From the IMG/VR virus record IMGVR_UViG_2933705211_000004, positions 5,884-69,883 of that record: a stretch of DNA of 64,000 bases; one strand, 5' to 3'. The notes below the pieces were generated by a model. It ran no database searches. It was not told the origin of the DNA and saw only the letters and a list, made by a program, of their open reading frames with translations. A program made the translations under genes and the position numbers. Below are positions 7,248 to 51,046 of the stretch, in pieces. Within the stretch, counting starts at the first letter, position 1. Each line of letters starts with the position of its first letter. This DNA is from a virus (lineage: Duplodnaviria; Caudoviricetes).

Positions 7248-8855
7248 GTGGCTGGTATTACTGCGCCGCAGCGCACCCGCAAGAGCCGGAAGCCCACTGG
7301 CCGACCGAACCCGCCGATCGTGCTGATCACCGGTCAGGAGAAGACCGGCAAGAGCTGGGAGGCGGCGCGCGGCTCCGGCTCCGACCTCATCGGCAACACC
7401 TACTGGATCGAGATCGGCGGCACCGAGGGGACGGCGGACTACTACGGCCGCGTCCCCGGCGCCCGATACGAGATCGTCGAACACGACGGCTCCTATCAGG
7501 ACATCCTCGACGCGATCCGCTGGAGCATCCAGCAACCCCGCGTCGACGGGAAGCTCAACATGCTCGTCATCGACTCCGTGACGTCGCTGTGGGACATGCT
7601 CAGCGACGAAATCGCGCTGTTCGCCCGGCGCCGCGCCGTCCGCAAGGCCCAGGAAAACCGCCGCCGCGCGCCCAGTACCGATGACCCCGTCGTTGTCGAT
7701 GCCGACCTGTGGAACCGGGCCAAGGACCGGTGGGGGGAGGTCTTGTGGCTGCTGCGCCGCCACCCCGGCCCCGTTCTGCTCATCGCCCGCCAGGAAGTCG
7801 TCACCGCCTTCGAGAACGACAAGCCGACCCGGAATACCACCCGGAAGGTGAAGGCCGAGAAGAACTTGCCCGCAGCGGTCGACGCCATCGTGGAGCTCCA
7901 CGCGGTCGGCGAGGCCTGGCTCACCGGAGTGCGCACCCTGCACATGTCGATCCAGCCCGGCGAGTCCCAGCGGTTCCCGGACTTCAGCGTGGACACGCTG
8001 CTGCGCCGCCTCGGCATCCAGGACGCTGTCGAGTCCCGGTCCGTATCCGAACTGCGCCCCGACGGCGATTTGCAGGAGCACGGTCAGCAGCCTGAGCCGA
8101 CCACCGTGCGGGCGGACCCGCCCCGGCCGGCTCCGGCCCTGAGCAACGAGCAGGCCGCCCAGCTCATCCGCGACGCCCTCATGCACCCCATCGATCCGGA
8201 GGGCGCGCTGCGCGAGTTGCGGGAGGACTATGGCCGCCGTGTTCTCAAGGCCGTACAGACCAATACCGCGTGGGGTCAGATGAATGCCGACGAGCTGATC
8301 ACCAAGTCACTCGACCACCTCAAGGCCAAGGCGGAGCAGGCCACGGCGGGCGAGCACAGCGATGACTCCAAGGAGCGCCAGGCCCCGCAGGAGCAGACGC
8401 ATGACAGCGCCCCGACGGATACCCAAGCGCCCGAGCCGGACGGGCAGGGGTTCCCGCCGCCGGACCCCGAGGAGCAGCCGCCCGTGGATGAGCACCCCGA
8501 GGACGTCAGCGAAGCCGAGGAGCCCCAGGACCTTCCGCGTCCCCGGCCCGCTCAGATGAACAAGGCGAACAAGGCGATGGCGGTGCTGCTCACCGAAGCC
8601 GAAATCCAGGCCCGCCTCTTGGGGGTGCCCATGGAGGAACACCTCGCGCCCATCGCCAGGCCGGACGACGGGACGCCGCCGCCCATGACGAAGCTGCGGA
8701 CCTACGTGATCGAGCACCGCGACACGGTGATCGCGCTCTTGGAGGAGCAGGGGCAGCGGGACATCGCCAACGCCTACCGTCTGGCGGGCAAGCCGGAGCT
8801 GAAGATCGCCGCGATGTTCTCGACGCTCTACGACGACCTGGTCACGGTCGGGTGA
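7248..8855 (+). CDS. AAA_24/Sak4-like recombination ATPase with long C-terminal extension
   Basis: GQEKTGKS Walker A and LVIDS Walker B. Confidence 0.8.
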   Translation: MAGITAPQRTRKSRKPTGRPNPPIVLITGQEKTGKSWEAARGSGSDLIGNTYWIEIGGTEGTADYYGRVPGARYEIVEHDGSYQDILDAIRWSIQQPRVDGKLNMLVIDSVTSLWDMLSDEIALFARRRAVRKAQENRRRAPSTDDPVVVDADLWNRAKDRWGEVLWLLRRHPGPVLLIARQEVVTAFENDKPTRNTTRKVKAEKNLPAAVDAIVELHAVGEAWLTGVRTLHMSIQPGESQRFPDFSVDTLLRRLGIQDAVESRSVSELRPDGDLQEHGQQPEPTTVRADPPRPAPALSNEQAAQLIRDALMHPIDPEGALRELREDYGRRVLKAVQTNTAWGQMNADELITKSLDHLKAKAEQATAGEHSDDSKERQAPQEQTHDSAPTDTQAPEPDGQGFPPPDPEEQPPVDEHPEDVSEAEEPQDLPRPRPAQMNKANKAMAVLLTEAEIQARLLGVPMEEHLAPIARPDDGTPPPMTKLRTYVIEHRDTVIALLEEQGQRDIANAYRLAGKPELKIAAMFSTLYDDLVTVG

Positions 8856-8878
8856 GGCGACATGACGTGATTGCTCCC

Positions 8879-9011
8879 CGAGCACGCCCCGCGTGCACGG
8901 GGAGCAGTGGATCGACCTGACACCTGACGTCCTTGGAGCCATCCCCACGTGCATGGGGAGCAATGTTTGGCACTCTTCACTACGGGGCCATCCCCGCACA
9001 GCGGGGATCCA
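8879..9011 (-). CRISPR. Cas-less type I-E-like mini-array (3 degenerate repeats; spacers 20 and 27 nt)
   Basis: Repeats at 8984-9011, 8935-8963 (minus strand TTGCTCCCCATGCACGTGGGGATGGCTCC) and 8879-8907 resemble the actinobacterial I-E repeat GTGCTCCCCGCGCACGCGGGGATGGTCCC. Confidence 0.8.
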
Positions 9012-9019
9012 ACAAGCCA

Positions 9020-9048
9020 ATTATGCCTCGTCCGCTTCCCCTTGCCAG
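9020..9048 (-). promoter_or_regulatory. sigma70-like promoter for the mini-array
   Basis: Minus strand CTGGCA-N17-CATAAT; predicted start falls at the first repeat. Confidence 0.55.
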
Positions 9049-9120
9049 GGGTTTCGAGCCAGCCGCTGACGACGTCTGGAACGCGACGCTCCTCGCTAAG
9101 CAAATCCCGCACGCGTAGCC

Positions 9121-9630
9121 GGGCGCGCCCCGCGCCACTTCACGTCATCGCGAAGGCGCGCCTCCAGGGCTACCACCTGGGGGCGCGCCTGACCCCCGAC
9201 CCGGCGCTCCAGCGCAACAGTGGCGCTCCCCGCTCTTGCCACCGAGCGCGCCACCGTGATCATCGGTGAGGAGCGCGCCCTTACACGAGCGCCACCTCTG
9301 GGGCGCGCCCTCCCGGCCGGCGCACCGCACGAAGCGCGCCATCAACATCGCGGCGCGCCCCGTCGAGGGCGCCGTCCTCCTGCCCGTAGGCGCGCCCCTC
9401 CTGGTGGCGCGCCATGGCCTGACCTGCAAGTTTTCCGCGCGCGCCGCTGAGATGGCGCGCCCGGCACCCTGCACTGGCCGCCCCCTCGGCGCGGTCGCGC
9501 CACTCCAGCGGCGGGCGGACCCACACCCGGCGCGCCTCTGGGCTCACGGCGCGCCCAGGACACGAAGAAGGGCGCGCCCGAGCGGGCGCGCCCTGAGGGC
9601 GGTTGCGGCGTCAGTTCGCTGGGCGCGCCC
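9121..9630. repeat. dispersed array of about 20 GGCGCGCC-like palindromes
   Basis: GGCGCGCC or 1-mismatch variants near 9121, 9156, 9181, 9272, 9301, 9352, 9389, 9406, 9454, 9529, 9548, 9570, 9584, 9621 and others. Confidence 0.8.
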
Positions 9631-10444
9631 GCCTGCGAAGTTCGAACCGTCGCTGCCGACGTACCTCCTCGCGCGCCTTCTTCGCGTCGGCGCGCACCGC
9701 GTTGAGCAACTGGGAGAAGTCCTCGGGGTGCTTTTCGGCAAGCAGCCGCATGGCTTGCAGGCGGTGATTCGGGGCAGACGGCATCCGCCCCCACCGTGCC
9801 TCCGAGTAGTTCAGCGTGTATTGCAGGAACCGCAGCTCGGCTTCCAGTCGCGACCGCAGTTGGGCGACACGCGCGTCGTGCGCCTTGCGTGTCTCGCCCG
9901 CCTCGGCGGGCAGGTACCCCTCCGGGGTGCGCATCATCTGCTCGGTCAGTGTCTTCGTGCGCAGCGCAACCTCCGGAGAGCGGAACGCCAGGCCCTGGAC
10001 GTAGTTGTGCCCGGCCCGCGTACTCCCGGCTGCCTCCTGCACGAACGTTGACCATTCACTCGCGAAGTCCTCGTCGGCGAGCTGAGCCAGGTATTCCGCC
10101 TCGTCGTCGGCGAGGTCTTCGATCGTCTCGACGACGGGTTGCCGGGCCGCCTGGAGCTGTGCACGGAAGGCGTTCATGCGGGCCTGGTACTCACGCTTCG
10201 ACTCCGCGTCGCCCCGGGGCAGCACGGTCTTGATCTCGCGTGCGGTGCGGTCGGCGGTGACGAGGGTGCGGGTAGCCAGGTCCGGCGAACGGAACGCGGC
10301 CCCCTGCACGTCCCGCGGGGCCCGGGGGTCGATTCCGCCCAATACGTACGTCGCCCATGCCTCGAAGAACGTCTGGTGCGACATTTCCTTGAGGCGTTTC
10401 ACCTCTGCCGAGACCTGCTCGGCAGGTGGCTGCACGTCGGCCAT
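9611..10444 (-). CDS. hypothetical protein with internal duplication
   Basis: RBS AGGAGG. Two copies: W.T(Y/F)V...VQG.AFRSP...LP....E....(Y/H).AR....R..L. Confidence 0.8.
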   Translation of the reverse strand: MADVQPPAEQVSAEVKRLKEMSHQTFFEAWATYVLGGIDPRAPRDVQGAAFRSPDLATRTLVTADRTAREIKTVLPRGDAESKREYQARMNAFRAQLQAARQPVVETIEDLADDEAEYLAQLADEDFASEWSTFVQEAAGSTRAGHNYVQGLAFRSPEVALRTKTLTEQMMRTPEGYLPAEAGETRKAHDARVAQLRSRLEAELRFLQYTLNYSEARWGRMPSAPNHRLQAMRLLAEKHPEDFSQLLNAVRADAKKAREEVRRQRRFELRRRARPAN

Positions 10445-10766
10445 CCCCGCGGCTCCTCCTGGTCGTAGCGGCTCCGGTACTGGCAAGCCGTTGTGCCGCC
10501 GCGCGTGGCGGCCGTAACGATGGCTGCCTCGCAACCGAACCCACTCCGTGTGCCGGGTCGTCGCAGGAGCAACCGCTCTCCGGCCCTGGGCGCTCTGCAC
10601 GCGCGCAGTGTCTCGGCCCGTTGGTCTGCCAGTCGACCCAGGAGGAAAGGGATACCCAAACTCCCAGAACCGGCAGCGGTCCTCAACGTAGTGAGTTCGG
10701 CGGCGAAGCGGCCACCTAGGTGCGGATGATACCCGCCGGCAGTCGGCGGCCGATCCGCAGCGGACG

Positions 10767-15651: not shown

Positions 15652-16854
15652 TCAGTAGTGGAAGCTGTCGGAGCGCTTGAGGTTGAGGACGCAGGTGCCG
15701 TCCGCACTGATCTCGTCTCCGACGATGCGGTGCCACACGTCGACGTCCCCCACCCAGGGAACGTGGACCTGGATCCGGATGTCGTCGCCCAACACCCACG
15801 CCCCGAACTGGGCGTTGGGGTGGTCGATGACCTGGATTGCGGGAATCTGGAGCGCCTGAGTGCGCCCGGCGATTTCCTGCTCGCCGCGGATCCGCAATGC
15901 CGAGTCCGACGAGAGGGTCTTGTCGGCGACGGTGGCCACTCGACGCAGTCGGCCGTCGTAGCGGTACACCTGGGCGCGGGCCATCGCGCGCCCCTCGCCC
16001 TTGCCGAGCACCATCACTTCGTTGGCGAACTCATCGCCCAGCCCCTCGGGTTTGGCGATGGCGGAGATGTTCTCGCCGTCAGCGAATCGCAGGTCGTAGC
16101 GTCGGCGGCCGAGGCGGGGGGTGCCCAAGCGTATTCGGTGCTCGATCTGGTTGCCGCCGTACGGGGACCAGTCGTGCGTCTCGACCCAGTCGAACGGGAC
16201 GGTCTTTGCCAGGGAGTCGAGGGCAACGCCGCAGTCGGGGTGGTCCCACCAGGACAGTTGCCACGGGTCGGAGCCGTCTGCGGCCCCCAGGAGTTCGCCG
16301 AGGTTGTGTGTGTCGACGGTGACGCCAACGTCGCCGTAGGGCCGGGACTGGACGTGTGCCCAGATGCGGCGGAACCCTTCGAACGCGTCGATGCGGGGGC
16401 CGGTGTACGGCGGCGGCGGGGGCGGCACCTGCCGTTTCGGTTTTGAACCGTCGATGTAGCCGTCGTGGTTCTTGTCCTTTCCCGCATTCGGATCGGGCGG
16501 GGTGATCAGCTCGCCGGAGATCACGTGGTCCTCGAACGGGATGCCGTGCGCGTAGGTGCTCAGCCCCTCGCACTCCAGGCTCAGCTTGGGCCCGTCGAAC
16601 CCCATCTTCGTGACGATGCCGCCCCACCGCAGATGCCCATCGACCTCCAGGAACAGCTTGGTGCCCCACTCTTGGATGATCGGCTTGCCGTCCGGGCCGA
16701 GCATGCGGGCGTATTCGGGCTCGATGGTGCCGCTCAGTGAACCCGGCCCGGACAGGGTCCGCTTGGGATTGCCACTCGGCGCCAGCGGCACGTCCCAGTC
16801 GATCACGAACGTGTCCAGCGCTCGCGCGGCGATGTAGCGCCAGGCGGCCGTCAC
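15652..16854 (-). CDS. minor tail protein (Tal / Gp37-like hub)
   Basis: WGGIV, FANEVMVLGKGEG, LGDDIRI motifs; GTGA overlap with upstream gene. Confidence 0.75.
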   Translation of the reverse strand: MTAAWRYIAARALDTFVIDWDVPLAPSGNPKRTLSGPGSLSGTIEPEYARMLGPDGKPIIQEWGTKLFLEVDGHLRWGGIVTKMGFDGPKLSLECEGLSTYAHGIPFEDHVISGELITPPDPNAGKDKNHDGYIDGSKPKRQVPPPPPPYTGPRIDAFEGFRRIWAHVQSRPYGDVGVTVDTHNLGELLGAADGSDPWQLSWWDHPDCGVALDSLAKTVPFDWVETHDWSPYGGNQIEHRIRLGTPRLGRRRYDLRFADGENISAIAKPEGLGDEFANEVMVLGKGEGRAMARAQVYRYDGRLRRVATVADKTLSSDSALRIRGEQEIAGRTQALQIPAIQVIDHPNAQFGAWVLGDDIRIQVHVPWVGDVDVWHRIVGDEISADGTCVLNLKRSDSFHY

Positions 16855-23337: not shown

Positions 23338-23720
23338 AGGTCGACTCCGTAGACCTTGGCCAGGCCGATCGTGAGGCGGACGTAGTCCGGGAAGGAGGGG
23401 GCCAGGTCCGCGAACCGCTGGTACTCCTCGTCGCCGAGGAGGGAGCGGTGGATGTCGTAGATCGCGTCGACGAACTGGCGCGGCAGCTTGGGCCGCTTGA
23501 AGGCGAGTTCGATGACGGTGGCGGCCGTCGGGTTCTCGGTGGCGGCGAAGATGTCGCCGAGCAGGCCGATGAGGTCCAGGTCGTCGGAGAGCAGCGGGTC
23601 CAAGGATGCGGCCGGCAGCTCGGCGGGGAAGAGGAACTGTTCGCCGCGCAGCAGGACGGGAATCCCGTTGGGGTACTGGACTTCGCGGCGCTCGGCATCC
23701 AGGTCGATGACGAAGGACAT
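23202..23720 (-). CDS. tail assembly chaperone (gpG-like)
   Basis: Between major tail and tape measure; contains DLGK slippery site. Confidence 0.8.
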   Translation of the reverse strand: MSFVIDLDAERREVQYPNGIPVLLRGEQFLFPAELPAASLDPLLSDDLDLIGLLGDIFAATENPTAATVIELAFKRPKLPRQFVDAIYDIHRSLLGDEEYQRFADLAPSFPDYVRLTIGLAKVYGVDLGKLFGLGGSSANSGETSSPTSAASTTGSTPEESGASQESPASSD

Positions 23721-34327: not shown

Positions 34328-34603
34328 TCAATCCAATGGTGCAAGCCGGGCTGGGCCCTCCGTCCTCTCGCCCGACTCGACGACGTTGCTGTAACGACGA
34401 AGGACGGCGAGAACCGACTTCTCGTCATCGCCAATCACGGTGCGCAGGGGGCCTGCCGGCGTCAGCAGGATCGACTCGCCCGCGTGCAGCTCGACGAGGG
34501 CCGCCGCGCGGGCAGAGCCGATGACCGGCCGGTCCGGTTCCCCGGTGACCTGCACCTGGTAGGCGGACCCGTCGTCGAACCGGCCGGTGACGGTGAGCGT
34601 CAT
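34328..34603 (-). CDS. hypothetical protein coupled to the giant gene
   Basis: AAGGAG RBS immediately after the giant ORF stop. Confidence 0.65.
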   Translation of the reverse strand: MTLTVTGRFDDGSAYQVQVTGEPDRPVIGSARAAALVELHAGESILLTPAGPLRTVIGDDEKSVLAVLRRYSNVVESGERTEGPARLAPLD

Positions 34604-34614
34604 CGTCGTCTCCT

Positions 34615-37600
34615 TCATCGCGTGGCGAGCAGGCCGAGGAGGAACGCTCTCAAGTCGTCGTCCTCGTACCAGTCGCCGGTGAACATGGCCTGCAGAGATC
34701 GAGCGAGGCTGTCACCCGTGTCCGTCTGCGTCAGCTGCCGGTGCTGATGCAGGAGGCGCCCCAGGGCACTGTCGTCGAGCGTGCGGGCGCCGGGCCGCCC
34801 GGTGTGCGTACGGGTGAACCAGAACACTCGCTGTGCGGCGTCCAGGTCCGGGAGGTGACCGGCGAGGTGCTGCCCGAGGACGTATCCGGCCGTGCCCAGC
34901 CCCTCGTCATCGAGGTCGGCGATCGTGGCGCGGCGGGCGTCGGGCTCGTAGCGGGCTTCGTCGCCGTCCACGGCGGTGAGCCTGCGCCCGTCAGGCGTGG
35001 CGAGCCAGTCCCGGGGGATGAGGCGCTGCGCACCGGGTACGGCGCGCTCGGCGTCGGGGGTGGTGTCCGGGCTGAACACGATGCCCGCGTTGCCCTGGGG
35101 GCCGAGATCGCGGATGCCGGCCAGGGCCGCTGCGACGGCGTCGGGCACCGCGGCGGCATAGCGGGAGCGCAGCTCCTCCCACTCACGGCGGGCGGCCGAG
35201 GCCTCCATGCGGGCAGCCGCTATCTCCACCTCGACGTCCGGGTCCTGGATGGTGCTCGTCGTGCGCGCGGCCTGGAGGTTGAGCAGACGCCGCTCCGTTG
35301 CGGCCATGTAGTCGTCCGCGTGCTGGAGCGTGCCGTGCGGGTCGTGGCCGAAGTCGTCGCCGAGCGTGTCGGCCAGACGCCGGGTCACCTCCCGGTCGAC
35401 ATCTGCGCCGACCGACCGCAACGCGGCCATGTGCCGCAGCGCGGTGAGGCCAGGCCCGCCGTCGGCGGCGCGGTCAGGTATCCACCGGGTCTCGCTGGAG
35501 CGGCCGGGGAGCCTGCCCGCGGCGAGCTGCGTCCATGTCGTGGGCCTCCACCAGGAGACGCGACGAGACGCCTGCCCGAAACGGCCGCGTTCGGGCAGCA
35601 GGCCCGCCCACTGCGACACCCTCGCGGCCAGCGACTCGCCTTCGACGTCCGGAAGGTCGAGCGCGGCGTTCAGGCGCGCCAGACGGCGGGACTCCGGCCA
35701 GTCGCGGACCCGGCGCACCAAGCGGCGCAAGAACGCCTTCAGGCGGGAGATCCGGTCACGGCTGTTGTGCCACAGCTCGGCGATCTTCCGACCGACCGCC
35801 TTCACCAGCTCGATGAGGCGACGCCCGATGCTCCCCAACAGGGCGATTGCCTGGGCGAGGAAGCCGGGCTGCGGCCCGTTCCCCGGGGCTGTGGCGGCGG
35901 CGCGGCGGACGATGCGCTGAGCGGTGGCCTGGCGGGTGCCGTTGAGCTGCGCCGCCAGGAGCCGGGTCAGCGCGGCGGTGTCGGCCGGGTCCGTCCCGGT
36001 CTCGCCGAGCTGCCGCAGGAGCGAGGTCACCGCGTTGTTGACGTGGGTGGTGGCGTCGTCGGACCCATGGATGTCCGGCGCGCTACGACGACGCGACGAC
36101 GAGGAGGGATCGGCCTGGTCCGGGATGAGCCGCAGCAGGTCTGCCGCGCGCTGGGCCAGGTCCTCGTTGGACTCGCCGGGGAGGGGTTCGAGGTCGTTGA
36201 CGGTGCGCAGTGCGGCTCGGACGGTTCGCTCGTGCGCCTTCTCTCGGGCCCGGCGGAGGGCCTGTTGCACAGAGGCGCGGTCGCGGCCGGTGATGCCCGC
36301 GGCGGTCAGCGCGGCGTTCCCTTCCTGGCGGGCCGCGTTGCGGGCGTCGTGCAGGGCCTCGGGGGTCAGGCGCTGGGCGATCTGGTCGCGCAGCGCATGA
36401 ATCTCGCCGGGCGGTTCGGTCCCGGCCACGGCCTCGTCGATGATGCGCACGGCCACCGTACGGCTGTGATTCGAGACGATCTGGCGCCGCACTGACGCAA
36501 TCGGCGAGTTGGGGTCACGCGGGGCCGGAGCGGGCGCCGAGTCCGGGACGGTGCTGTCGGTGCTGACGGGAGCGGGCTCGGGGAGCTGCCACACGGGCAT
36601 GGCCGCGTGGACGAGGCGACGCTTCCACTGCCGGTTCTCGTCCTCCAGGAGGAGCCTGCGCACCCCGCCGGGGCCCTCCTCCACATCGAGGACTCGGTAG
36701 ACGTGGACCTCGTCGCCACGGCGTTCGTCGGGCATGGCGATGACGTCGCCTTCGCTGATCTGCGCGGCGTTGGAGGGGCGTGGGCGGTCGAGGCCCTCTG
36801 GCGCGGTGCGGCCGGCGGCGAGGTCGAGGTGGTCGGCGGCGCGTAGGGCAGCCCGCCCCTGGGGGGTGGACGGGTCCGCGTTCGCCCGGAGCTGCGCGGC
36901 GAGGGCAGCGGCCTGGTCCGGGGTGACAGGGAGGTCGGCGCCGAGCCGGGCGGCGGCCTGCTGCGCCTCGGGGGTGTCTTCGGGGGTGGTGCCGTTGTCG
37001 GCGATGGCGTCGCGGTCGGCCGGAGTGAGGTCCGGGTCGACCGTGGGGCCGGTGACGGGGTCGAGGGCAGGCAGCGGCTGGTGGACCGTGAGGTCGTCGG
37101 CGGCGCTGGGGGCGTCGTCCGGGCCAAGGTCGGGGGCTTCGCCGTTCGGCCCTTCGGCCTTGTGGACGACGGCCGTTGCGTCCATGTCGATGGTGCCGAG
37201 CTCGCCCGTCGTGGTGTCGGCGTAGTCGAAAGTGATGCGGTCGCTGTCGCGGTTGGTGTCCCGGATCTCCACTGTGGCCGGGGTGCCGTCGAGGTCGAGC
37301 ACGATGATGTCGCCCGTGGTGACCTCGTCGGCGGTCGGCTGGCTGATACCGGTGATGGGCGCGGTCGCGGGGGTGTCGTCGCGGACTTCGCCGACGACGC
37401 GGAGGTCCGCAGCGCTGCGGGTCACGGTCCCGTCAGCGGTGGTCACCGTGATGCGGTCGCCGTCGGTCTCGTCGACTGGGCCAAGGAGTGCACCACGGTC
37501 GTCGGCGACGACGTGGCCGGGCCGGATCCGCTGGCCCGTCGTGGTCCAGCCCTCGGGCCGGGCGCCCGTCGATTCGCTGATGTTCAGGGAGGACGGGGCG

Positions 37601-40600
37601 ACGTTGTTGTCCGTGTCGCCGTCGGCCCACCGTACGGACACGGTGGCGTCGGTGACCCCGGTGACGGTGCCTGCACGGTCGCCGTTCCCGGTCACCGCGG
37701 TGCCGGGGAAGAGACCGCGGCCGCGGGCGTCGGTGGCGATGGTGTCGGGCAGGGCACCGCTGGCCACAGCGCCTTGGGCACCGCTTGCCGGGGCGCCCGG
37801 GGCGGGGGCCTTCGGTGCTTCGGCGCGGGCTGCGCTGGCGTGGAGCGGGGTATAGACGACGCCCCGAGCGCCACTCTGGCCGTCGGGGTTCTCACCGATC
37901 GTCGTACGCCACATGTCCCCGGTGCGGCCCCGGCGGGTCACCGTGACCCGCTGTGGGGAGTCGAGGACGTATCCGGCGCGGGTCACGGCGCGGCCGCGCT
38001 GGTTGGTTCCGTCGATGCGTGCCATGTCGCCGGGCTGGAGCTGGTCGACGCTGGCCCAGTGAGCAGGCTGTCCGCCGATCGGCTCCGGCTCGGCGGCCGG
38101 CCGTTGGCGCCTTAGCGCGTCCTGGTCCGGCGCGGCTTCCCCTGCCGGCCGGACCGTCGTGGCATCCGAAGGAGCCGGTGCCTGCGGGGCGTTGGAGTCG
38201 GGGCGGCCCCCGGAGCGGGCGTTCTGGTCATTGTCCCGGCTGTTGCCGCTGTGCTCGCCGGGACGCGGCTTGCGTCGTACGACGCCCAGCTCCAGGCGCG
38301 CGTCATGCGGGCTGTCGGTCTGCCCGTCCGGACCGGTCCAGGTGATGTCGGCCGGGTAGCGGTAGTAGTCACGTGAGGCGAGCGCCTGCATGCCGGTGGG
38401 GCTCCAGACCCGTGACTGGTCGTCAGTGATGGTGCCCCGTGCGGTGCCGAGCGGGTGCGCGCCGCCGCGCAGGGAGTGGGCGGGGTCGACGGCCAGCGGG
38501 AAGCTGACTTCGTCCCCTGCCTGCAGCTCGGCGGGATTGGCGAGCACGGTGTAGCCGTCGGCCTCCTGCTGCTGGTGCCAGGCGTCTGCCTCCTGCCGCC
38601 ATGTCCGATGCTCGTCGGCGCGGGCCGCGTCGAACCGCCACTGGCCCTCGCGGCTCGGGTTCTGGGCCAGGACGCGGGCCATGGTCTCGGCGAGGCTTTC
38701 GCCGTCCGGGCCGCGGAACGTCCGGGCGCGCTCCATAGCGTCGGGAGCGTCCCACGGGAACGGGTTGCCGTCGGCGTCCCGAACCTCGGCTTCGAGGGTG
38801 TTCGCTGCGTGGAGCGCGTCCTTGAGCGTGCCGAGCCCGTCCCCGTGCGCCTGGAGCAGCGGCAGCAGACCGCCGGGGGTGGCCACGGTGAAGCGGCGGT
38901 TGTTCTCCTCGCCGTGCCGGGCCGAGCGGTTGCCGTGCACCAGGAGCCGACCACCACGCGAGAGCCGGGTGTGCTTGTCGTCGGCGATCTCACGCTGCTC
39001 GGCGGGGCTCGGCGGGCGGGTTCGGCTGCCTTCGTCGAGCGAGGAGGGGTCGAGCTGGCCGTTGCGCAGGTGCTCACGTACGGCGTTGAGGTTGGCGAAC
39101 CGGGGGGTGGCCGGGTCGTACGCGGCAGGGGCAGGGGCAGGGGCAGGGGCAGGGGCAAGCTCCGGCGCAGGTCCAGGGCTAACGCTGTTGCCCGGCTCGG
39201 GATCGGCGACGGTGTCCGGCGCGGGCGCGCCCTCACCCGCGACCATGTCCGAGGCACCCGCGTTCTGCCGCTGTGCCTCCTCATGCCGGTCGCGCTCGAC
39301 ACGCTCATCAGCGCGGCGCTGCTGCTTGAACTGGTTATAGGTGAGGCGCCCCCCGTTGTCGTCGAACCATTCGAGCAACTCCTCGCTGGCGTAGTCGCGC
39401 CACCGGCCGAACCGGGACAGGCTGCCGCCGGAGAACAGGTCACGCTCGCCGACGGGAGGGAGCCGCCTGCTGTTGCGGCTGAAGAAGTAGCCGTTGGTCG
39501 CATCAAGGGCAGCCGCGTACCGGGCCTCGTCGGCCTCCTGGAACTCGCGCTGCAGACGCTCCTCGCGCGACAGCGGTCGCCGGGTGACGTCCGTGTCGCC
39601 GAAGCCGAGAGCGGCATCCATTGCCTCGCCGCGCTGGCGGACTTCCTCGGCGCTGGTCGGAGCCGTGGCCGGGATGGCGTCGCGGACACGCTGATCAGCG
39701 TTGTCCCGGCGGTCCATCTCCGCCATGACCCTCATCTGGTCGCCTTCCGACAGGCCCTGCCCCCACGCTGCGGCAAGGTCGTGGTCGGACATGGCAGTCA
39801 GGTCGTCCGGCAGCGCGGTGAGCTTGGGCGCGGCCTCGGGGGTATCGGTGGATTCGGGGGCGGGTGCAGGGCTTTCGTGGTCTTGCTGGAAGGCGTCGCG
39901 GGCCGCGTGCAGGGCCTGTGGCAGGGGCCGCCCGTTGCGGTCGCGCCATCGGGCGATGGTGTCGGGGCTGAGCGGTTGGTGCCAGTCGAGTGGCTGCCCG
40001 TCGGCGTCAGTGATCTGCTCGAACCGGTCGGCGAGTTCGCGTGCCTCGTCGGCATCGCGGGCCGCGAAGGTGATCTTGCCGAGGCGGCCGCCGTTGCGGG
40101 ACTGCGCGAAGCGCCACTGGTCGGGGGCGTCGGGATCGCTCCAGGTGACCAGCCCGCCGCCGGAGGACAGGGTCACGGTCGGGTTGTCCGCGAGCTGGGC
40201 AAGGAACTCCCGCCGCTCAGCGGTGTTCTCCTCCGTGGTCAGTCCGGCACCACGGCGCCAGACGTCACGCAGCTCCTCGACGGTACGGGGATGCTCAGGC
40301 CGCGCTGCACCATCTGGTGCTCCGCGGTCTGCCGCGTCATCGTTTCCGGTGCGGTTGGACAGGTCCGGCAGATTCGGCAGGCCGCCCGTGGGCAGACCGG
40401 AGCCGCCCAGGCCGCCCGGCCCCGCGCCGTTGCCGCGGCCTCCACGCCGACGGCGACGGCGGCGGTCATTCTCGTCATCCCGGCTGTCGGTGCCGGCGTC
40501 TCCGGGGCGGGGCTCAGCCGGACCCTCGGGGGTGCCCGGGGACTGCGCGCCGTCCGGCCCCGTGCCCGGTGTGCCGTCCGGGCCCGCGCCGTTGGTGTCC

Positions 40601-43600
40601 TGGTCGCGGCGGCGCCGTTCGTCGCGGGGCTGCTCCTCGTCCGGTTCGCTGCGGGCGGGCCGCTCTGACTCCGGGGCGTCTTCGGGGGCAGCTGTCTCGC
40701 CATCCGGAGACGTGGTGCGGTCGCCGTCCTGCCTGCTCGGCTCACCCTCGTCGACGGGCGCGGAAGCGTCCGGCACCGGGGCCGTGGCATCGTCCACCGG
40801 GTCGGTGCGGTCGCGTGCCTGCTCGCCGTCACCAGACTGCTCGTTGTCGACGATCTCCTCGTCCGGATAGCGCAGGCGCAGCTCGGCGTCTCGGTTGTAG
40901 TAGCGCTCCTGGCCATCGTCGGTGACGATGCGGACCCGCCCGCGGCCGGTGAGCCGGGGCGGTTCGGCGATCGTGCGCGTACGGCCGTCCGCGTCGGTGT
41001 ACCGGTCTCCCGCTTCCAGGTCGGCAGGGTTACGCATCTGGACGGGGCGCAGGTCGCTGGTGTCGCGTCCCTCGTGGTCCGCGAACATGTCCGGGGTGCC
41101 GAACACGTCGTCGGGCCGGTCGAGCGGGTTGTCCGGATCGGCAATCTGGGGCGTGGGGGCCTGCGGCTCGTCGACGTCGAAGAGACCACCCTCGGGCGCG
41201 GCAGGCTCCGGCTTGGGCGCAGGCTTCGGGGTACGCCCGGCCCGGCGGTCCTTCTCGGCCTCCAGAACCGTCATGCGGGTGCGGTCGAGGCCGGTCAGCT
41301 CGCCGTCGGCCATCTCTCGTTCGACCAGGGCGACAATCTCGTCGGCGATCTCCTGGTCCGTCATAGCCGACGGCGCGCGGGTGCCTTCGGGGCGTATGGC
41401 ATCGAGCTGTTGGGCGACCTCGTCGCGGTCGAGGGTGACCGTGCCGTCGTCCGCCGCCGTGCTGTCCGTGTCGGGCGAGTTCGGCTCCTGGCTCGGGGTG
41501 CGCCGCTGCTCGGCAGGCGTGTCCTCGCCGTCGTCACCGGGCGGGGTAGAAATGGGCGGCAGATCCTGGCCGCCGTCATTGCCGCCGTCACCCGCCGCTG
41601 TGTTCCGAGCGAACGGCGTCTCATCAGCGGGGGCGTCGTCCGTGCGAAGCCCATCGAGCGTCCGGGAGACCTCACCGGCCGGCAGACGGTCCCGGTCTGC
41701 TTCCGACTGCTCGGGGTGCTCCGGGCGCTCGGGCTCGGGATGCTCGCGGTCGAAGTCCTCAAGCGTGAGCACTGAGTTGTCGACGGCTCCCTGGAGCGGT
41801 ACCCGAGCGGCGCGGCGCTTCTCGACGATCTCCTTGCGCTGCGCCTTGGTCAGCTTCTTGTCGAGGTCGTCCTCATCGATCTCGGGCAGCTTGTCGAGCT
41901 CGGCGACCCTGCCGACCACATCGTCCAGCAGGTTCGCGCGGGCCCGCGCGTGCTCGATCTGCGGGGTGAGGTCAGCTGCGGCCTGCGAGGACTGCAACAG
42001 GGCTATTTGCTCGTCGAGTTCGGGCAGGCGTGCCCGGTCAGCCTGCTGGAGTGCATCGGCCTTCTCCAGGGCGTTGGCCAGGCGGGTGATCAGGCTCGAA
42101 CCGGCGCCCTTCTTCCGCAGGTCGTCCGGGCCTCGCTCGAAGTCGGAGCGCGCGAGGTCAGGGAAGCCGACGTGCGCGACGAGCGCGCCGTCCGGGCGGC
42201 GTTCGGTGCGCACCCCGATGTCGAGGCCGCCGAACTGCCCCAGGATCTTCCACGGGCCGATGCCGTCGCGGTCGTGCTCCAGAAGCTGGGTGGTGACCTG
42301 CCGGTGCAGCGCCGCGGCGGCATCCGAGCGCTCGTTGTACGACAGGCTCCCAAGGCTCATGGCGAAGGTGTCGCGGACGTTGCGGATGCGGGGCAGGGCC
42401 TGGTCGCGGCGTGTGATGCCGTCGTGGGTGTCGGTGAGTTCCTGTTGCAGGTCGGCCAGGGCCTCGGTGCGGCGGACGCGTTCGGCGGCCTCGTTGTGCT
42501 GGTCGATCTCCAGGTCGCGCAGGGTCCGGCGGGCCTTCATGAGCTGGCTCATGTAGGGGTTGCCGCCGATCTCGGCTTCCATCGTCTCGTAGTCGGGGTA
42601 GTCGACGTCGAGTTCGGTGACGGTGTCGCGGGTGTCGCTGTCGGCCATCTCCGGGCGCTGGATGTCGATCAGGCCCTCCGCCTTGGAGGCGACGAATCCG
42701 GCTTTCCAGCCGTCGAGGCTGCCCTTGGTGGCGAAGATGTCGATCTCGACCTCGGGGTTCTGGTTGCCGTACCGCAGGATGCGGCCGTTGCGCTGTTCCA
42801 TCTGCGCGGCGCCCCAGTCGAGATCCACGTGCGTCAGCGACACCATGCGGTTCTGGGCGTTCATGCCGGTGCCGGCGATGCTGCTGGAGCCGATGAGGAC
42901 GGCTATGTCACCGTCGCGGGCACGGCGGAACAACTCGGCCAGTTCCTCGGGCTTGCCCGACTTCTTGTGGTCCTGGACGAAGGCGATCTTCTCGGCGGGA
43001 ATGCCGCCCTGGACCATGAGGTCGCGCAGCTCCGCGTAGGCGTCGAAGCTGCCCCTGTTGTCACCGCCCGGCACACCCTCGTTCAGGAAGATCATCTGGA
43101 GGGCGCCGGTGACGGGATGGTCCTCGTCGCTGCCGTAGTACGTCTTGTAGACGCGGTCCTTGTGGCGGTGGTATCGCTCGACGTGCTTGGCCGCGACCGC
43201 GCCCAGCTTGTTGCCCGCCGAGGCCTTCGGGTCGACGAGCCGGGGGTCCAGGGCGACGGAGGTGCCCTCGTTGGACACCGTGAGCATGTTGTCGTCGACC
43301 AGGTTGCCCTTGCGGTTCCGGATCTGCTGGGGCTCGCCGATGTGAATGGCGCGGCCGCGGCCGACGAGGGTCTTCAGCCGCTTGGCCTGGTCCTTGGTCG
43401 AGTCGACCAGGATCAGGTTGGGGCCGCCGTCCTTGACCCTGGGCCGGGGGATGCCGACGTCGTCGGCCCGCTTGGTATCGGCGACCAGGCCCCACATGGT
43501 CTTCATCGCGCGGCGGTTGTGGAACTCGGCGAACCGCTCCACGACCCGCAGACCGGACCCGTCAGGTGCGTTCTCGATGCGCAGCGTCTTGCGGCCGAAT

Positions 43601-46600
43601 GTCGCCGCCCACAGGTCCGGCGCCCCCGCCTTGTAGGAGTCGAGGACCCACGGCGCTGCCAGGGCGAGCATCGTGTACTGCTCGGTGATCGAGTTGGACA
43701 GCGGCGTACCGGTGGCCAGAGTGACGGTCGCGCGGCCGGCACGGCGACGGTGCAGGTCCGTCAGCTTCTGGTGCAGGTCGATGCCGCGGAGGGTCGCCGG
43801 GTCGCCGCCGCCTTCCTTCGAGCGGAAGCCGACTCTCTTGTACCGGTGAGCCTCGTCGACGACGGCGTAGTCGAACCCGAGGTCGTCCCAGTACGACTGT
43901 CCGGGCGTGCGCATCGGCGCCGCGTTCTTGCTGAGCCGGTTCTGCAGCGTCGCGATGCGCTGCTCGATCTTGGCGACGATGAACGGGTGATTGGGGTTGT
44001 CCGCGTCCTCGTACTGCCGGTCGAGCTGCTCGCGCAGGTCCTCCAGAACGCGGAACTCGTAATCGTCCTGCGCCTCCGGGCTCATCTTGATCGACCCGAA
44101 GGCGGGCTCGGTGAAGATCACCAAGTCCGACTTGTTGGCCCGCAGCCACTCCAGCGTGCTGTCGCGACGCCCGTCGGCGAGGTCCGCCGACGTGATCAAG
44201 TGGATGTCGGCGTTCGGGTACAGGAACCGGGCCTCGTCGTACCACTGCTGCGCGAGGTGATCGGGGACGACGGCGAACGGCTTCTCGATCTGCCCCGACG
44301 CCTTGAGCGCCTGGGTGCCCATGACCAGCGTGGACGTCTTGCCCAGGCCCACCTCGTGGGCGAGGACCACCGACCGCTCGAACTGCATGCGCGCGGCGCC
44401 AGAGAGCTGCCAGGCGTGCGGGGTGCGTTCGGGGGTGATGCCGTCCAGGGACGGGCTCATGCCGTCGTACGAGCGGACGACATGCCCGTTCATGACCTGG
44501 TTGTAGGAGTCGGTCAGCCGCGTGAGGCGTTCGGCATTGGCCGTCGCGTACTTCGCGAACTCCGACCGCATCTGGTCGGCCTTCTGCCGGACCAGGCGGG
44601 ACGTTTCCTCATCGACGTGCTTGCGCTTGTCGTCGTGGTGGATCGTCAGCGAACCGTGGCCGAGGATCGCGCGAGCGATCTCAACGGCCGACTTGCCCCG
44701 GGTGCCCTTGGCCTCGTCGGCCGCGACGCCGTACAGGACGTTGTTGGCCTGCGGGACCTTGCCCGTGTAGAGCATCCAGCCGTAGCGGTCGTCATGAGCG
44801 ACGCGCAGGGTGCGGTCGCCCAGGTACTCGCGCAGGAAGTTTTGGAGCAGCTCGGGCGGCGTCCAGTGCGCGCCCATTTCTGGGGTGAACTCGCCGATGG
44901 TGCGCTCGGTCGGCTGGACCGCTTCGAGCGCGGCAACGTTGACGGCGAACGCCGGGTCCTGCTCGGCGGCGCGGCGCGCGGCGGCGAGCTTGTCGCGGAC
45001 GGGCCCGGACAGATAGGCGCCGGCCAGCTCCAGGCGTCCGGTAGACGGATCGGTGAAGACCTCTGTCCCCAGCGCCCGGACAGCGTCCTGCGGGTCCATG
45101 TCGAGCAGGCGGGAGATCTCGCCGAGGTCGACCTCCCCGGTTGCGGCGACGACCGCGGCCAGAGCCGTCTTCGGGTCTTCGGTCCGGGAGAGTGGCTGGC
45201 GGCGGGCTGCGGCACGTTCGGTGAAGACGCGGGACAGGACTGGCTCGCCCTTGTCCGCGTCCCACCGCTCCAGTGCGAGGACGGAGCCGGCGTCCGGGTC
45301 GGAGCGGAAAGCGCCGTAGGCGGTCGGGGTGCGTTCCTCCGTTCCGTCCGGCCGGGTGCCGGTCTTCATGGAGCGGAACTGGCCCGGCTTGGACAGAGGC
45401 CCGTAGGTGTTGACGTACGCGGTGTGGAGATCGCGGAGTTGGGCGCGCAGCTTCTCGGCGCGCTCGTCCTCGTCGTTCTTGCGGTCCAGCGCGCGCAGCT
45501 CGGCCGCGACGTCACGGAGCTGCATCAGGGAGCGGAGCTGTTCGGTGCGGCCGTCGGAAGGCTCGACCAGTACCGGGTTGCCGCCGTTGACGTGCTGGTA
45601 GAGCTTGCCGTCGTCGCCTTCGTAGAGGCGGCCGGTCCAGTCGGTGGCGTGCTTCTCCCGCGCGGTCTGCAGGAGCACCGGCGCCCGGTTGTCGCCGTCG
45701 GGATGCGGCTCGTAGCCGTTGCCGTCGGCCACCGACTGGGCGGCGATCTCGTGTAGTGCGTCGCGGAGTTGGTCCGCTGCGTTGGCCGGATTGCCCCTGA
45801 CGGTCAGGCGCGGGCCGTACGGGGACGACTCAGTGGTCAGATCCCCGAGGATGTGCTCAGGGTGCTCCGTGAAGTAGGCGTTGACGTGCTCGCGGACGTC
45901 GCCGATCTTCCGCTCGGGGGCGTTGAGCCATTTCGTGTCGCCGGGCTCTTCGCCGTCGGCACGGCGCCGCAGCACCAGCACGTCGGTGACGACGCTGGTG
46001 CCGGCGTCGTTGAAGACCCCGCTCGGCAGGCGCACGGCGCCGATCAGGTCGCCGTACTTTGCGATCTGCTTGCGGGCCTTGTCGCCCTTGGAGTCCAGGG
46101 TGTGCCGGGAGGTGATCAGCAGGGTGATGCCGCCCGGCCGGGTCAGCGCCAGTTCCTTGGTGATGAATCCGTTGTGCAGGGACTCGGCCGGATACCGCTT
46201 GTCGCCGAACGGCACTGAAGCGAAAGGGACGTTGCCGATGCTCGCGTCGAACGTGCCCGGGTGCGCGTCGGTCTCGGCGAAGTTCTCGTTGAGGACGTTG
46301 GCGTCCGGGTAGATCGCGCGGGCGATCCGTGCGCTGGTCGGATCGAGTTCCACGCCGGTCAGGCGGGCGCCGTCGGGGGCGGCGCCGAAGAACGTGCCGC
46401 TACCGGACCCGGCCTCCAGGACGTCACCGTGCTCGAAGCCCAGCTCGCGAAGGCCGTCCCACATCGCTTCGGCGATGGGCTGCGGCGTGTAGTGCATGGA
46501 CAGGGTGCCGCGGGACGCCTGCCGCCACTCCAGCGGTGTGAGCTCGTCGGAGAGCATGGTGCGCAGGTCGCGGTACTCCGCCCAACGGGCATGGTCCTGC

Positions 46601-51009: not shown

Positions 51010-51016
51010 GGCGCGG

Positions 51017-51046
51017 ACCATGCAGGCCGCACGTGGTTAAGGTCGC
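51017..51046 (-). promoter_or_regulatory. late promoter motif (giant gene, leaderless)
   Basis: GCGACCT-N17-CATGGT, 7 nt before ATG 51009. Confidence 0.7.

What the first reader, a model, noticed from the sequence alone, without database searches (positions are those of the whole stretch)
8871..9048. Phage-borne Cas-less type I-E mini-array with shortened spacers and its own promoter
Seen: CTGGCA-N17-CATAAT starts transcription at repeat 1. Then spacer GTAGTGAAGAGTGCCAAACA (20 nt), repeat 2, spacer AAGGACGTCAGGTGTCAGGTCGATCCA (27 nt), a degenerate repeat 3, and an inverted copy of the repeat 5' end (8872-8880). Repeat stems stay paired despite substitutions, and handles ATGGCCCC and ATGGCTCC are retained. 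Known: I-E spacers are about 32 nt, Cas7 covers 6 nt, and short guides can bind without efficient Cas3 cleavage; 20 nt equals two Cas7 fewer. Inference: these RNAs hijack host Cascade, either as RNA anti-CRISPRs (Racr-like) or as guides that repress host cas or competitor promoters.
Basis: partly seen in the sequence, partly recalled or inferred. Interest (0 to 1): 0.85.

Follow-up and report, generated by a model that had tools for sequence, protein, structure and literature searches.

The report
Prophage imitation of CRISPR guide array
A prophage in this actinomycete carries a small, self-contained imitation of a type I-E CRISPR array with no cas genes; it is most likely an RNA that decoys or reprograms bacterial CRISPR proteins, a phage trick already described, so it is a new example and not a new principle.

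Summary
On the minus strand of window 8872-9048 lie a sigma-70-like promoter, three type I-E repeat-like hairpins, two short spacers (20 and 27 nt) and a strong terminal hairpin. The element sits in a prophage and is absent from the same intergenic gap of six related prophages.

The repeats copy the I-E repeat that is common in this genus. They do not copy the resident host's own, very divergent I-E repeat.

I found no target for either spacer: not in the host genome, not in 60 cas3/cse1-upstream regions or 20 cse1-downstream cas regions of the genus, not in phage, viral, genome or metagenome collections. Two partial matches (cas3 HD region; one 12-nt seed with an AAG flank) fell to chance under natural-sequence controls.

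The architecture matches viral crRNA-like anti-CRISPR RNAs (Racr; Cracr arrays, including a Salmonella prophage I-E array with three repeats and 24/21-nt spacers). Similar Cas-less arrays occur elsewhere in this genome (contig C22), in other genus genomes and in Streptomyces phages. This scan has reported such arrays before on other DNA.

Verdict: new member of a known kind. Function as decoy or regulator is inferred. Expression is untested, because no RNA run is listed.

The parts
9020..9048 (-). sigma-70-like promoter (CTGGCA, 17-nt spacer, CATAAT); predicted start about 9013, one base before psiR1
   Evidence: 9 of 12 matches, 2 sites found in 8600-9700 against 0.0 in 50 shuffles. Sequence. 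The start site is inferred.
8984..9012 (-). psiR1: I-E repeat-like hairpin, loop one base shorter than the genus repeat, changed 5' flank, intact 8-nt handle
   Evidence: -14.6 kcal/mol hairpin; 19.9 bits, E 0.033
8964..8983 (-). psiS1, 20-nt spacer-like segment, no match found
8935..8963 (-). psiR2: I-E repeat-like hairpin, 24 of 29 to the genus consensus; its three stem changes keep pairing
   Evidence: -11.8 kcal/mol; 21.6 bits, E 0.013
8908..8934 (-). psiS2, 27-nt spacer-like segment holding a 7-nt tandem duplication; no target above chance
8879..8907 (-). psiR3: hairpin part 20 of 21 to the genus consensus, last 8 nt unlike a handle because they form the far arm of the terminal hairpin
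   Evidence: 16.6 bits, E 0.2; the same 21-nt hairpin variant occurs in a genuine array
8872..8906 (.). terminal 15-bp hairpin that swallows psiR3; terminator-like on both strands, no T tract
   Evidence: I3; -31 kcal/mol, z -5.46, 0 of 200 shuffles as stable; no T-tract terminator found
8872..9118 (-). the whole cassette as an insertion relative to six related prophages; the right edge is judged by eye, and blastn homology resumes only between 9268 and 9569

Best explanation
The locus is a self-contained small-RNA gene of a prophage: promoter, three imitation type I-E CRISPR repeats, two short guide-like segments and a terminal hairpin, with no cas genes. It belongs functionally with the viral crRNA-like anti-CRISPR RNAs (Racr and Cracr arrays).

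Inferred mechanism:
1. Transcription starts at the first repeat.
2. In a cell that has the genus-typical I-E system, Cas6e binds and cuts the psiR1 and psiR2 hairpins.
3. The products, an 8-nt handle plus a 20- or 27-nt guide plus a hairpin, load into shortened Cascade complexes.
4. This takes Cas proteins away from immune crRNAs (decoy or competitor).
5. If a partly matching site exists that I did not find, the RNAs also park Cascade on it (regulator).

The resident host's own I-E system is a distant variant. Here the cassette is probably cargo aimed at other hosts of this phage lineage.

Shown: the anatomy, the repeat family, the phage context, the insertion status, and recurrence of the design in other elements. 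Inferred: expression, processing and any effect on immunity.
For: Anatomy and significance.

The repeat type is a real I-E repeat of the genus:
- Window 8887-8962 hits 61-nt-period arrays in many of 400 sampled genus genomes.
- I collected 1,270 array repeat copies from the loci I hold, and 1,183 of them share the same 6-bp stem.

Hairpin kept by compensation:
- None of the 1,270 genuine copies carries psiR2's double change.
- Across 22 psiR units of 7 Cas-less arrays plus the consensus, 97.1% of 138 cells pair, with 2 double-sided changes. Only 3 of 500 shuffles reach this.

Moron-like insertion: six related prophages share both flanking genes but have no such unit.

Same design elsewhere:
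- own contig C22;
- G325, G115 and G234;
- Streptomyces phages ZL12 and Piccadilly.
- Several of these have a roughly 20-nt last spacer and a terminal hairpin.

Published parallels:
- The Salmonella prophage CracrIE array has three psiR, 24- and 21-nt psiS and a one-base deletion in a psiR. [quoted passage not shown]
- RacrIE1 and RacrIE2 inhibit an I-E system (PMC10651486, passages).
- 835 two-repeat and 297 larger viral mini-arrays have been listed (10.1101/2023.03.03.530964, passages).
Against: - No expression data exist.
- The cassette is unique. Neither spacer was found in one genome each of 185,579 species, in metagenome contigs or in IMG/VR, so nothing shows conservation of this locus.
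- No target or host regulatory guide matches either spacer. The defining feature of Cracr is therefore not met in my sample.
- The element is not a solitary repeat, so it is not a textbook Racr.
- The resident Cas6e and Cascade are far from the cognate type, and the host repeat differs.
- psiR1 has a shortened loop.
- psiR3 is predicted to be locked in the long hairpin, which could mean poor processing.
- The covariance-model scores are modest (16.6-21.6 bits, against up to 51 for units in other elements).
Confidence: 0.5

Rival explanations
1. It is a decaying, functionless scrap of a CRISPR array that this phage lineage once picked up by recombination in a host with the genus-typical I-E system. 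The short spacers and odd repeats are deletions and drift.
For: - It is unique to this prophage among those sampled.
- Neither spacer has a target.
- psiR1 lacks one loop base, and psiR3 lacks a handle.
- psiS2 carries a 7-nt tandem duplication (sequence).
- The resident host cannot obviously use it.
- Decayed array ends with single-sided stem changes are common in genuine arrays: 87 of 1,270 copies.
Against: - A promoter-like site is placed exactly at the first repeat and a very stable hairpin exactly at the end.
- All three stems are intact, one through a double compensatory change not seen in 1,270 genuine copies.
- All length loss lies in the spacers.
- The same three-unit, roughly 20-nt-spacer, hairpin-ended layout recurs in unrelated elements.
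Confidence: 0.28
2. It is a working guide array that borrows a host Cascade against a competitor phage or plasmid, or to regulate the prophage itself. Its targets are simply not in the collections.
For: [quoted passage not shown]
- Handles and hairpins are intact.
- Actinophage PIS 136 carries a canonical four-repeat I-E mini-array with a leader.
Against: - blastn at E up to 10 against 50,697 phage records hit only the repeats.
- psiS2 with N at every sixth base gave 0 hits in viral, genome and metagenome collections.
- psiS1 with N gave 5 viral hits, all in low-GC contigs and all mismatched at the free positions. The exact psiS1 gave 0 hits.
- Nothing in the host genome reaches 16 of 20 or more than 20 of 27; a single other site matches psiS2 at 20 of 27, a count that shuffled spacers also reach.
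- Within the prophage the best hit is a 10-nt seed, and that word occurs more than 50 times in the genome.
- Spacers of 20 and 27 nt are shorter than the 32 nt of genus arrays.
Confidence: 0.12
3. The hairpins serve the phage directly, as a bidirectional terminator and RNA-stability or origin-associated structures beside the GGCGCGCC motif cluster. The likeness to CRISPR repeats is incidental.
For: - The element lies between convergent genes, 16 nt after the stop of the ATPase gene.
- The terminal hairpin is very stable.
- The neighbouring motif cluster is conserved in six relatives.
Against: - The relatives manage without these hairpins.
- Three same-strand units match a CRISPR repeat model, handles included.
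- Only 6 sites of this quality exist in 9.17 Mb.
Confidence: 0.05

Closest known systems
[quoted passage not shown]
   Same: Both are prophage-borne, Cas-less and of type I-E. Both have three imitation repeats and two short guide-like segments (24 and 21 nt there, 20 and 27 nt here). In both, one repeat has a one-base loop deletion and the last unit is poorly processable.
   Different: There the guides copy host CreR guides and match the casA promoter. Here no host guide or promoter match was found. Here the repeats do not fit the resident host's system.
Racr, RNA anti-CRISPRs from solitary repeat units, including RacrIE1 and RacrIE2 (Camara-Wilpert et al., Nature 2023, PMC10651486; passages read)
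   Same: Both are repeat mimics on a mobile element. Both have a promoter directly upstream and no cas genes. The expected action is sequestration of Cas6 and Cas7.
   Different: Racrs are single repeats followed by unrelated sequence. This element is a three-repeat array with handle-flanked short spacers.
Viral mini-arrays catalogued by Shmakov et al. 2023 (10.1101/2023.03.03.530964; passages read) and virus mini-CRISPR arrays in interviral conflict (PMC6858448, search listing only)
   Same: Both are two- or three-repeat arrays in viral genomes without cas genes. PIS 136, which I also met, is named in the Shmakov paper.
   Different: The conflict arrays have host-identical repeats and full-length spacers that hit related viruses. 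Neither holds here.
Unannotated Cas-less I-E-like arrays in Streptomyces phage ZL12 (GQ919031.1) and the Piccadilly group (OL455886.1 and relatives), and in genus genomes G325, G115, G234 and own contig C22
   Same: They share the repeat family, diverged loops and flanks with kept stems, a mix of roughly 20-nt and roughly 32-nt spacers, and a hairpin after the last unit.
   Different: The spacers are unrelated. The longest shared 5' prefix is 6 nt, which 229 of 2,000 shuffles reach. The genomic contexts differ.

Membership tests
Canonical type I-E CRISPR array | 29-nt repeats with the I-E hairpin and 8-nt handle | tested here: met
   The match is to the genus-typical repeat, at modest scores (16.6-21.6 bits). 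psiR3 lacks the handle.
Canonical type I-E CRISPR array | 32-33-nt spacers, 61-nt period | tested here: not met
   The periods are 49 and 56 nt, against 61 nt in genus arrays.
Canonical type I-E CRISPR array | adjacent cas genes and a conserved leader | tested here: not met
   Pfam Cse1, Cas7e, Cas6e and Cas3 HD match only contig C19. The 100 nt upstream do not resemble the genus leader ends, by eye.
Racr (RNA anti-CRISPR, solitary repeat unit) | encoded on a virus or plasmid, no cas genes | tested here: met
Racr (RNA anti-CRISPR, solitary repeat unit) | sequence and fold like the repeat of a cognate CRISPR system | tested here: met
   Met for the genus-typical I-E repeat. Not met for the resident host's repeat.
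Racr (RNA anti-CRISPR, solitary repeat unit) | promoter within 250 bp upstream | tested here: met
   (prediction only)
Racr (RNA anti-CRISPR, solitary repeat unit) | a single repeat unit | tested here: not met
   There are three units with two spacers.
Racr (RNA anti-CRISPR, solitary repeat unit) | expressed small RNA that binds Cas6 and Cas7 and lowers interference | not testable with these tools
   No RNA run is listed.
Cracr array (viral crRNA-like regulatory RNA) | two or more imitation repeats around short guide-like segments on a mobile element | tested here: met
   Segments of 20 and 27 nt. The published ranges are 17-21 nt for the viral I-F elements (cracrIF) and 23-27 nt for the host ones (passages).
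Cracr array (viral crRNA-like regulatory RNA) | guide copies a host CreR or CreA guide, or matches a cas or creT promoter with at least 9 PAM-proximal pairs | tested here: not met
   - Host genome: nothing reaches 16 of 20 or more than 20 of 27; one other site matches psiS2 at 20 of 27, within the range of shuffled spacers.
- I searched 60 of the 67 best Cse1 loci, 5.3 kb upstream each, and 20 regions of 9.1 kb downstream of cse1. Best scores equal those of shuffled spacers.
- CreR-like units do exist in the genus, but none of the 38 census units shares the first 6 nt with either spacer (read by eye).
- One 12-nt seed with an AAG flank occurs in 1 of 60 loci, at chance level.
- This is a sample only. 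The papers' tables of host guides are supplements that I could not see.
Cracr array (viral crRNA-like regulatory RNA) | lowers cas or toxin transcription through Cascade | not testable with these tools
   Needs an experiment.
Virus mini-CRISPR array for interviral conflict | repeats identical to the host's arrays | tested here: not met
   About 17 of 29 positions agree with the host C19 repeats, by my count.
Virus mini-CRISPR array for interviral conflict | spacers match related viruses | tested here: not met

The most novel reading that the evidence does not exclude
The three deliberately different hairpins (three loop and stem variants in one transcript) form a multivalent, target-less sponge, each unit tuned to the Cas6e of a different I-E variant that the phage lineage meets. 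Such heterogeneous, roughly 20-nt-spacer arrays would then be a Streptomyces-wide class of pre-emptive RNA anti-CRISPRs that work without any guide target and are carried even into hosts whose own system they do not fit. The perfect self-targeting spacer tolerated by this host, together with two such arrays in one genome, would fit active RNA inhibition.
Probability: 0.15. Interest if true: 0.6.

Novelty: new member of a known kind. Interest (0 to 1): 0.35.

Why it matters
If it is active, the cassette adds an actinomycete prophage example to the RNA anti-CRISPRs described in 2023-2026. It also has two useful twists:
- The mimic fits the I-E variant of sister species and not that of its present host.
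- It is a clean 245-nt insertion whose presence or absence among related prophages makes a natural experiment.

For people who engineer Streptomyces with endogenous I-E systems, or who use phages in that genus, such cassettes could explain silent or leaky CRISPR immunity. It does not open a new principle. This scan has already reported several Cas-less I-E imitation arrays in Streptomyces-type phages.

Tried and rejected
1. Rfam scan of 8000-10000 at E up to 10: no CRISPR-repeat family matched.

2. Spacer targets in the host genome.
- Nothing for psiS1 at 3 mismatches or fewer, or for psiS2 at 5 or fewer.
- No other site reaches 16 of 20; one other site matches psiS2 at exactly 20 of 27, and shuffled spacers give the same counts.

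3. Collection scans.
- psiS2 with free sixth positions: 0 in viral, genome and metagenome contigs.
- psiS1 with free sixth positions: 5 viral hits, judged chance.
- psiS1 exact: 0.
- Phage records by blastn: hits only in the repeats.

4. cas-locus targets: ungapped matches equal those of shuffled spacers.

5. A 15-nt exact run of psiS2 (positions 12-26) in the conserved HD-motif region of genus cas3 looked promising.
- Only 1 of 300 shuffles reached it, and 2 of 100 by local alignment; location.
- But 929 of 19,940 natural 27-nt windows of this prophage reach the same run length against the same 312 kb.
- The PAM-proximal 11 nt do not match, and the host's own cas3 has no likeness there.
- Rejected as chance or, at most, a relic.

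6. A 12-nt PAM-proximal match with an AAG flank lies 1.56 kb upstream of cas3-cse1 in one genome.
- Its first 10 nt are a common coding word, with more than 50 copies in the host genome.
- The neighbouring ORFs have no Pfam family.
- Rejected.

7. The best psiS1 hit in the host cas region falls on a leader-repeat junction (14 of 20). This is within the shuffle range. A similar hit in another genome lies in an ordinary gene. Rejected.

8. A shared seed among spacers of seven Cas-less arrays: not significant.

9. Exact matches of 13 nt or more between the mini-arrays and cas loci: uninformative, because every one of 420 control windows has them.

10. Host CRISPR spacers against this prophage: none of 48.

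11. Expression: no RNA holder is listed.

12. PHROG and Pfam names for the self-target region and for the G214 neighbours: none.

13. Supplementary tables of the Cracr and mini-array papers (host guide lists, viral array lists) were closed. They may already list ZL12, the Piccadilly group or this prophage type.

Full report
**What is there.** The window is G000:C12:6052-70051 of a 9.17-Mb, 84-contig, roughly 68-70% G+C genome. It holds a prophage. Tape measure, portal, prohead protease, tail protein, a DnaE-like polymerase and a Sak4-like ATPase are recognised by PHROGs and Pfam. The ATPase gene is 75% identical in DNA to gene 77 of Streptomyces phage Gilgamesh.

The finding lies in a 755-nt gap between two convergent genes, 7248-8855 (+) and 9611-10600 (-). 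Read on the minus strand it has these parts:
- a promoter-like pair, CTGGCA, 17 nt, CATAAT, at 9048-9020;
- psiR1 at 9012-8984;
- a 20-nt segment at 8983-8964;
- psiR2 at 8963-8935;
- a 27-nt segment at 8934-8908;
- psiR3 at 8907-8879;
- an inverted copy of the first 16 nt of psiR3 at 8887-8872 (pair I3).

**Is it more than chance?** Yes.
- The promoter-like site is one of only two in 8600-9700, where 50 shuffles give 0.0.
- Each unit folds alone into a 6- to 8-bp G+C stem with a 3- or 4-nt loop, followed by an 8-nt tail. That is the shape of a type I-E repeat.
- A covariance model built from 26 distinct genuine repeats of the genus finds only these three units below E = 1 in the 64-kb window: 21.6, 19.9 and 16.6 bits, all on one strand within 130 nt.
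- In the whole genome only six sites match the genus consensus repeat at 23 of 29 or better, and psiR2 and psiR3 are two of them.
- Rfam itself returned nothing relevant.

**Which CRISPR system do the repeats imitate?** They do not imitate the resident one. The host has Cascade genes on contig C19 (cse1, cse2, cas7, cas5, cas6e), a cas3 about 11 kb further on and three arrays there. Those repeats have a different, 5-bp stem and a different handle. They agree with the mini-array's type at about 17 of 29 positions (my count).

A DNA search of 400 other genomes of the genus showed that window 8887-8962 (psiR3, spacer, psiR2) aligns to genuine 61-nt-period arrays in many of them. Reading those arrays gave one dominant 29-nt repeat family (example copy L018:2592-2620, minus strand).
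- psiR2 differs from that consensus at 5 of 29 positions.
- psiR3 matches 20 of the 21 hairpin positions.
- psiR1 has the exact handle, a loop one base shorter and a changed 5' flank.

Of 401 genus genomes, 166 have a Cse1 match. The resident host's Cas proteins are far from those of 20 genus-typical loci: Cas6e 23-52%, Cas7 29-39% and Cas5 39-48% identical, and Cse1 and Cse2 not detected by tblastn. So "hijacks host Cascade" is plausible for sister species and doubtful for the present host.

**Signs of selection on the hairpins.** In 1,270 repeat copies from genuine arrays that I hold, 1,183 carry the consensus stem. The other 87 mostly show one-sided changes. psiR2 has three stem changes, and all three preserve pairing: a G-C to A-U double change and a G-U wobble. 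No genuine copy has that combination.

I aligned 22 imitation repeats from seven Cas-less arrays with the consensus. In that alignment 97.1% of 138 cells pair, and two pairs show double-sided changes (psiR2 here, and the first unit of ZL12). Only 3 of 500 shuffles reach these values, and slid controls pair at 43-67%. These sequences are related and few, so this is support and not proof.

**The end of the unit.** psiR3 together with its inverted copy forms a 15-bp hairpin of -31 kcal/mol (z -5.46; 0 of 200 shuffles as stable). The local psiR3 hairpin alone is only -12.3 kcal/mol. The "degenerate" last 8 nt of psiR3 are therefore the far arm of this hairpin and not drift. There is no T tract. 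The hairpin sits 16 nt after the stop of the convergent ATPase gene, so it may terminate both strands. The published Salmonella array likewise has a poorly processed third unit.

**Insertion status.** Six other genomes of the 400 hold related prophages that share both flanking genes at 69-83% DNA identity. Their gaps contain the same cluster of GGCGCGCC motifs as window 9120-9560, but no I-E-like unit. This holds by eye and by Hamming scan and by the covariance model, which finds nothing below E = 5 there. Homology to the relatives stops at 8867-8889 and resumes between 9268 and 9569 by blastn. By eye the shared motif context resumes near 9119-9135. The cassette is thus a roughly 245-nt insertion with its own promoter and end, the layout of a phage moron.

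It is also private. Neither spacer occurs in one genome each of 185,579 species, in the metagenome contigs or in IMG/VR, apart from chance hits. No conservation evidence exists for this particular locus.

**Targets.**
- Host genome: no other copy or near copy.
- Phage records: only the repeats hit.
- For cas promoters I took 5.3 kb upstream of cse1 in 60 of the 67 best-scoring Cse1 loci, 9.1 kb downstream in 20 of them, and the host's own C19 region. In most loci cas3 abuts cse1. The best ungapped matches of both spacers equal those of shuffled spacers.

Two leads needed care.
- The last 15 nt of the 27-nt segment are identical to a conserved piece of genus cas3 just after the HD motif. Shuffles made this look rare (1 of 300), but 4.7% of 19,940 natural 27-nt windows of this same prophage do as well. 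The PAM-proximal 11 nt do not match, and the host's own cas3 is unlike there.
- The first 12 nt of the same segment, with an AAG flank, occur once, 1.56 kb upstream of a cas3-cse1 fusion gene in one genome. Its first 10 nt are a common coding word found more than 50 times in the host genome.

I treat both as chance.

**Host regulatory guides.** Host-encoded regulatory mini-arrays do exist in the genus. A pattern census found 38 short-spaced repeat pairs in 33 of 401 genomes, against 2 in the reversed-pattern control. Several sit a few hundred nt upstream of cse1, with a 20-21-nt guide that partly matches a site about 280 nt upstream of cse1 in the same locus. None of them resembles either spacer here (by eye).

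**The same design elsewhere.** The census and the phage search turned up further Cas-less imitation arrays:
- three units on the host's own contig C22, just upstream of a helix-turn-helix gene;
- three units in G325, downstream of a UvrD-like helicase gene;
- two-unit genes with promoter-like and terminator-like flanks in G115 and G234;
- three units followed by a terminator hairpin in phage-plasmid ZL12;
- six units in an unannotated gap of phage Piccadilly, with matching hits in seven related phages of the same host.

Their spacer-like segments measure 20 and 27; 21 and 32; 38 and 19; 32 and 20; 32, 31, 29, 20 and 22; 21; and 23 nt. They share no significant 5' prefix (6 nt at best, reached by 229 of 2,000 shuffles). 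Phage PIS 136 of Saccharomonospora has, by contrast, a canonical four-repeat array with a leader and 32-33-nt spacers.

**Comparison with what is known.**
- Camara-Wilpert et al. (PMC10651486; passages) showed that solitary viral repeat units with an upstream promoter are RNA anti-CRISPRs that trap Cas6 and Cas7. Two I-E examples were active.
- Liu et al. (bioRxiv 10.1101/2024.10.29.618823; outline, sections 7 and 8, passages) describe viral crRNA-like regulators (Cracr), often in arrays. [quoted passage not shown] The short guides copy host CreR or CreA guides. Their Salmonella prophage example has three imitation repeats, 24- and 21-nt guides and a one-base deletion in one repeat.
- Shmakov et al. 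(10.1101/2023.03.03.530964; passages) list 835 two-repeat and 297 larger viral mini-arrays.

The present locus has the anatomy of a Cracr array but fails, in my sample, the feature that defines one: a guide that copies a host regulator or hits a cas promoter. It has the context of a Racr but is not solitary. I therefore say that it works like these RNAs and do not file it as a proven member of either.

I found no paper naming such arrays in Streptomyces phages. One search looked for Streptomyces, phage, mini-array, CRISPR repeat and anti-CRISPR, and for Racr terms. The supplementary lists were closed, so this is not a claim of absence from print. Earlier reports of this scan describe several Cas-less I-E imitation arrays in Streptomyces-type phages and prophages on other DNA, some with guides that copy host regulators and one aimed at cas3. 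Those were leads that I tested here, with negative results for this locus.

**Verdict.**
- The most likely reading (about 0.5) is a prophage small-RNA gene that decoys, and perhaps reprograms, the genus-typical I-E Cascade. It is carried here in a host whose own system it does not fit.
- A functionless relic is the main rival (about 0.28).
- Novelty: new member of a known kind.
- Interest: modest.

Noticed in passing
G000:C22 about 23,438-23,640, minus strand (locus L002 about 1497-1640): A second Cas-less I-E-like mini-array lies in the same genome. It has three diverged repeat units (one matches the genus consensus at 26 of 29) and spacer-like segments of about 38 and 19 nt. It sits directly upstream of a helix-turn-helix gene.
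   Followed up: partly
G000:C19:102273 (array spacer) and G000:C29:74113-74144 (locus L139 6113-6144): One of the host's 48 CRISPR spacers has a perfect 32 of 32 match elsewhere in the host genome, with GAG on the PAM side. This suggests that the resident I-E system is inactive or inhibited. The ORFs around the target have no PHROG family.
   Followed up: partly
window 9120-9560, and the same gap in loci L012-L017: A dense cluster of GGCGCGCC motifs is conserved in the homologous intergenic region of six related prophages. It is probably an origin or a protein-binding array.
   Followed up: partly
G000:C31:27,688-28,140 (locus L050 about 9688-10140): An orphan array of at least 7 repeats with 32-nt spacers and a third repeat type. 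It lies next to a TnpB/Cas12f-like gene and about 4 kb from a DnaE-like gene. No cas genes are near it.
   Followed up: partly
loci L061 (G222), L067 (G125), L098 (G029), L063 (G152), and census rows: Host-encoded two-repeat units with 20-21-nt guides lie upstream of cse1 in genus-typical I-E loci. In L061 and L067 the guide partly matches a site about 280 nt upstream of cse1. These are candidate CreR-like autoregulators in this genus.
   Followed up: partly
OL455886.1 about 34,550-34,920 (L041 1222-1529), GQ919031.1 about 83,930-84,070 (L042 1493-1631), JX006077.1 about 15,680-15,890 (L071 836-1046): Three unannotated arrays in phage records. Piccadilly has six diverged I-E-like hairpins, with hits in seven related phages. 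Phage-plasmid ZL12 has three units plus a terminator. PIS 136 has a canonical four-repeat array with a leader.
   Followed up: partly
rows with open frames of about 1,450-1,800 aa: Many genus genomes appear to carry cas3 fused to cse1 in one open frame. In others cas3 ends where cse1 starts, which leaves no intergenic promoter region.
   Followed up: no
window 34615-51021, minus strand: A single 5,468-aa open reading frame lies between the portal and protease genes.
   Followed up: no
window 8908-8934, minus strand: The 27-nt spacer-like segment contains a 7-nt unit twice in tandem. Without one copy it would be 20 nt, the same length as the first segment (sequence).
   Followed up: partly
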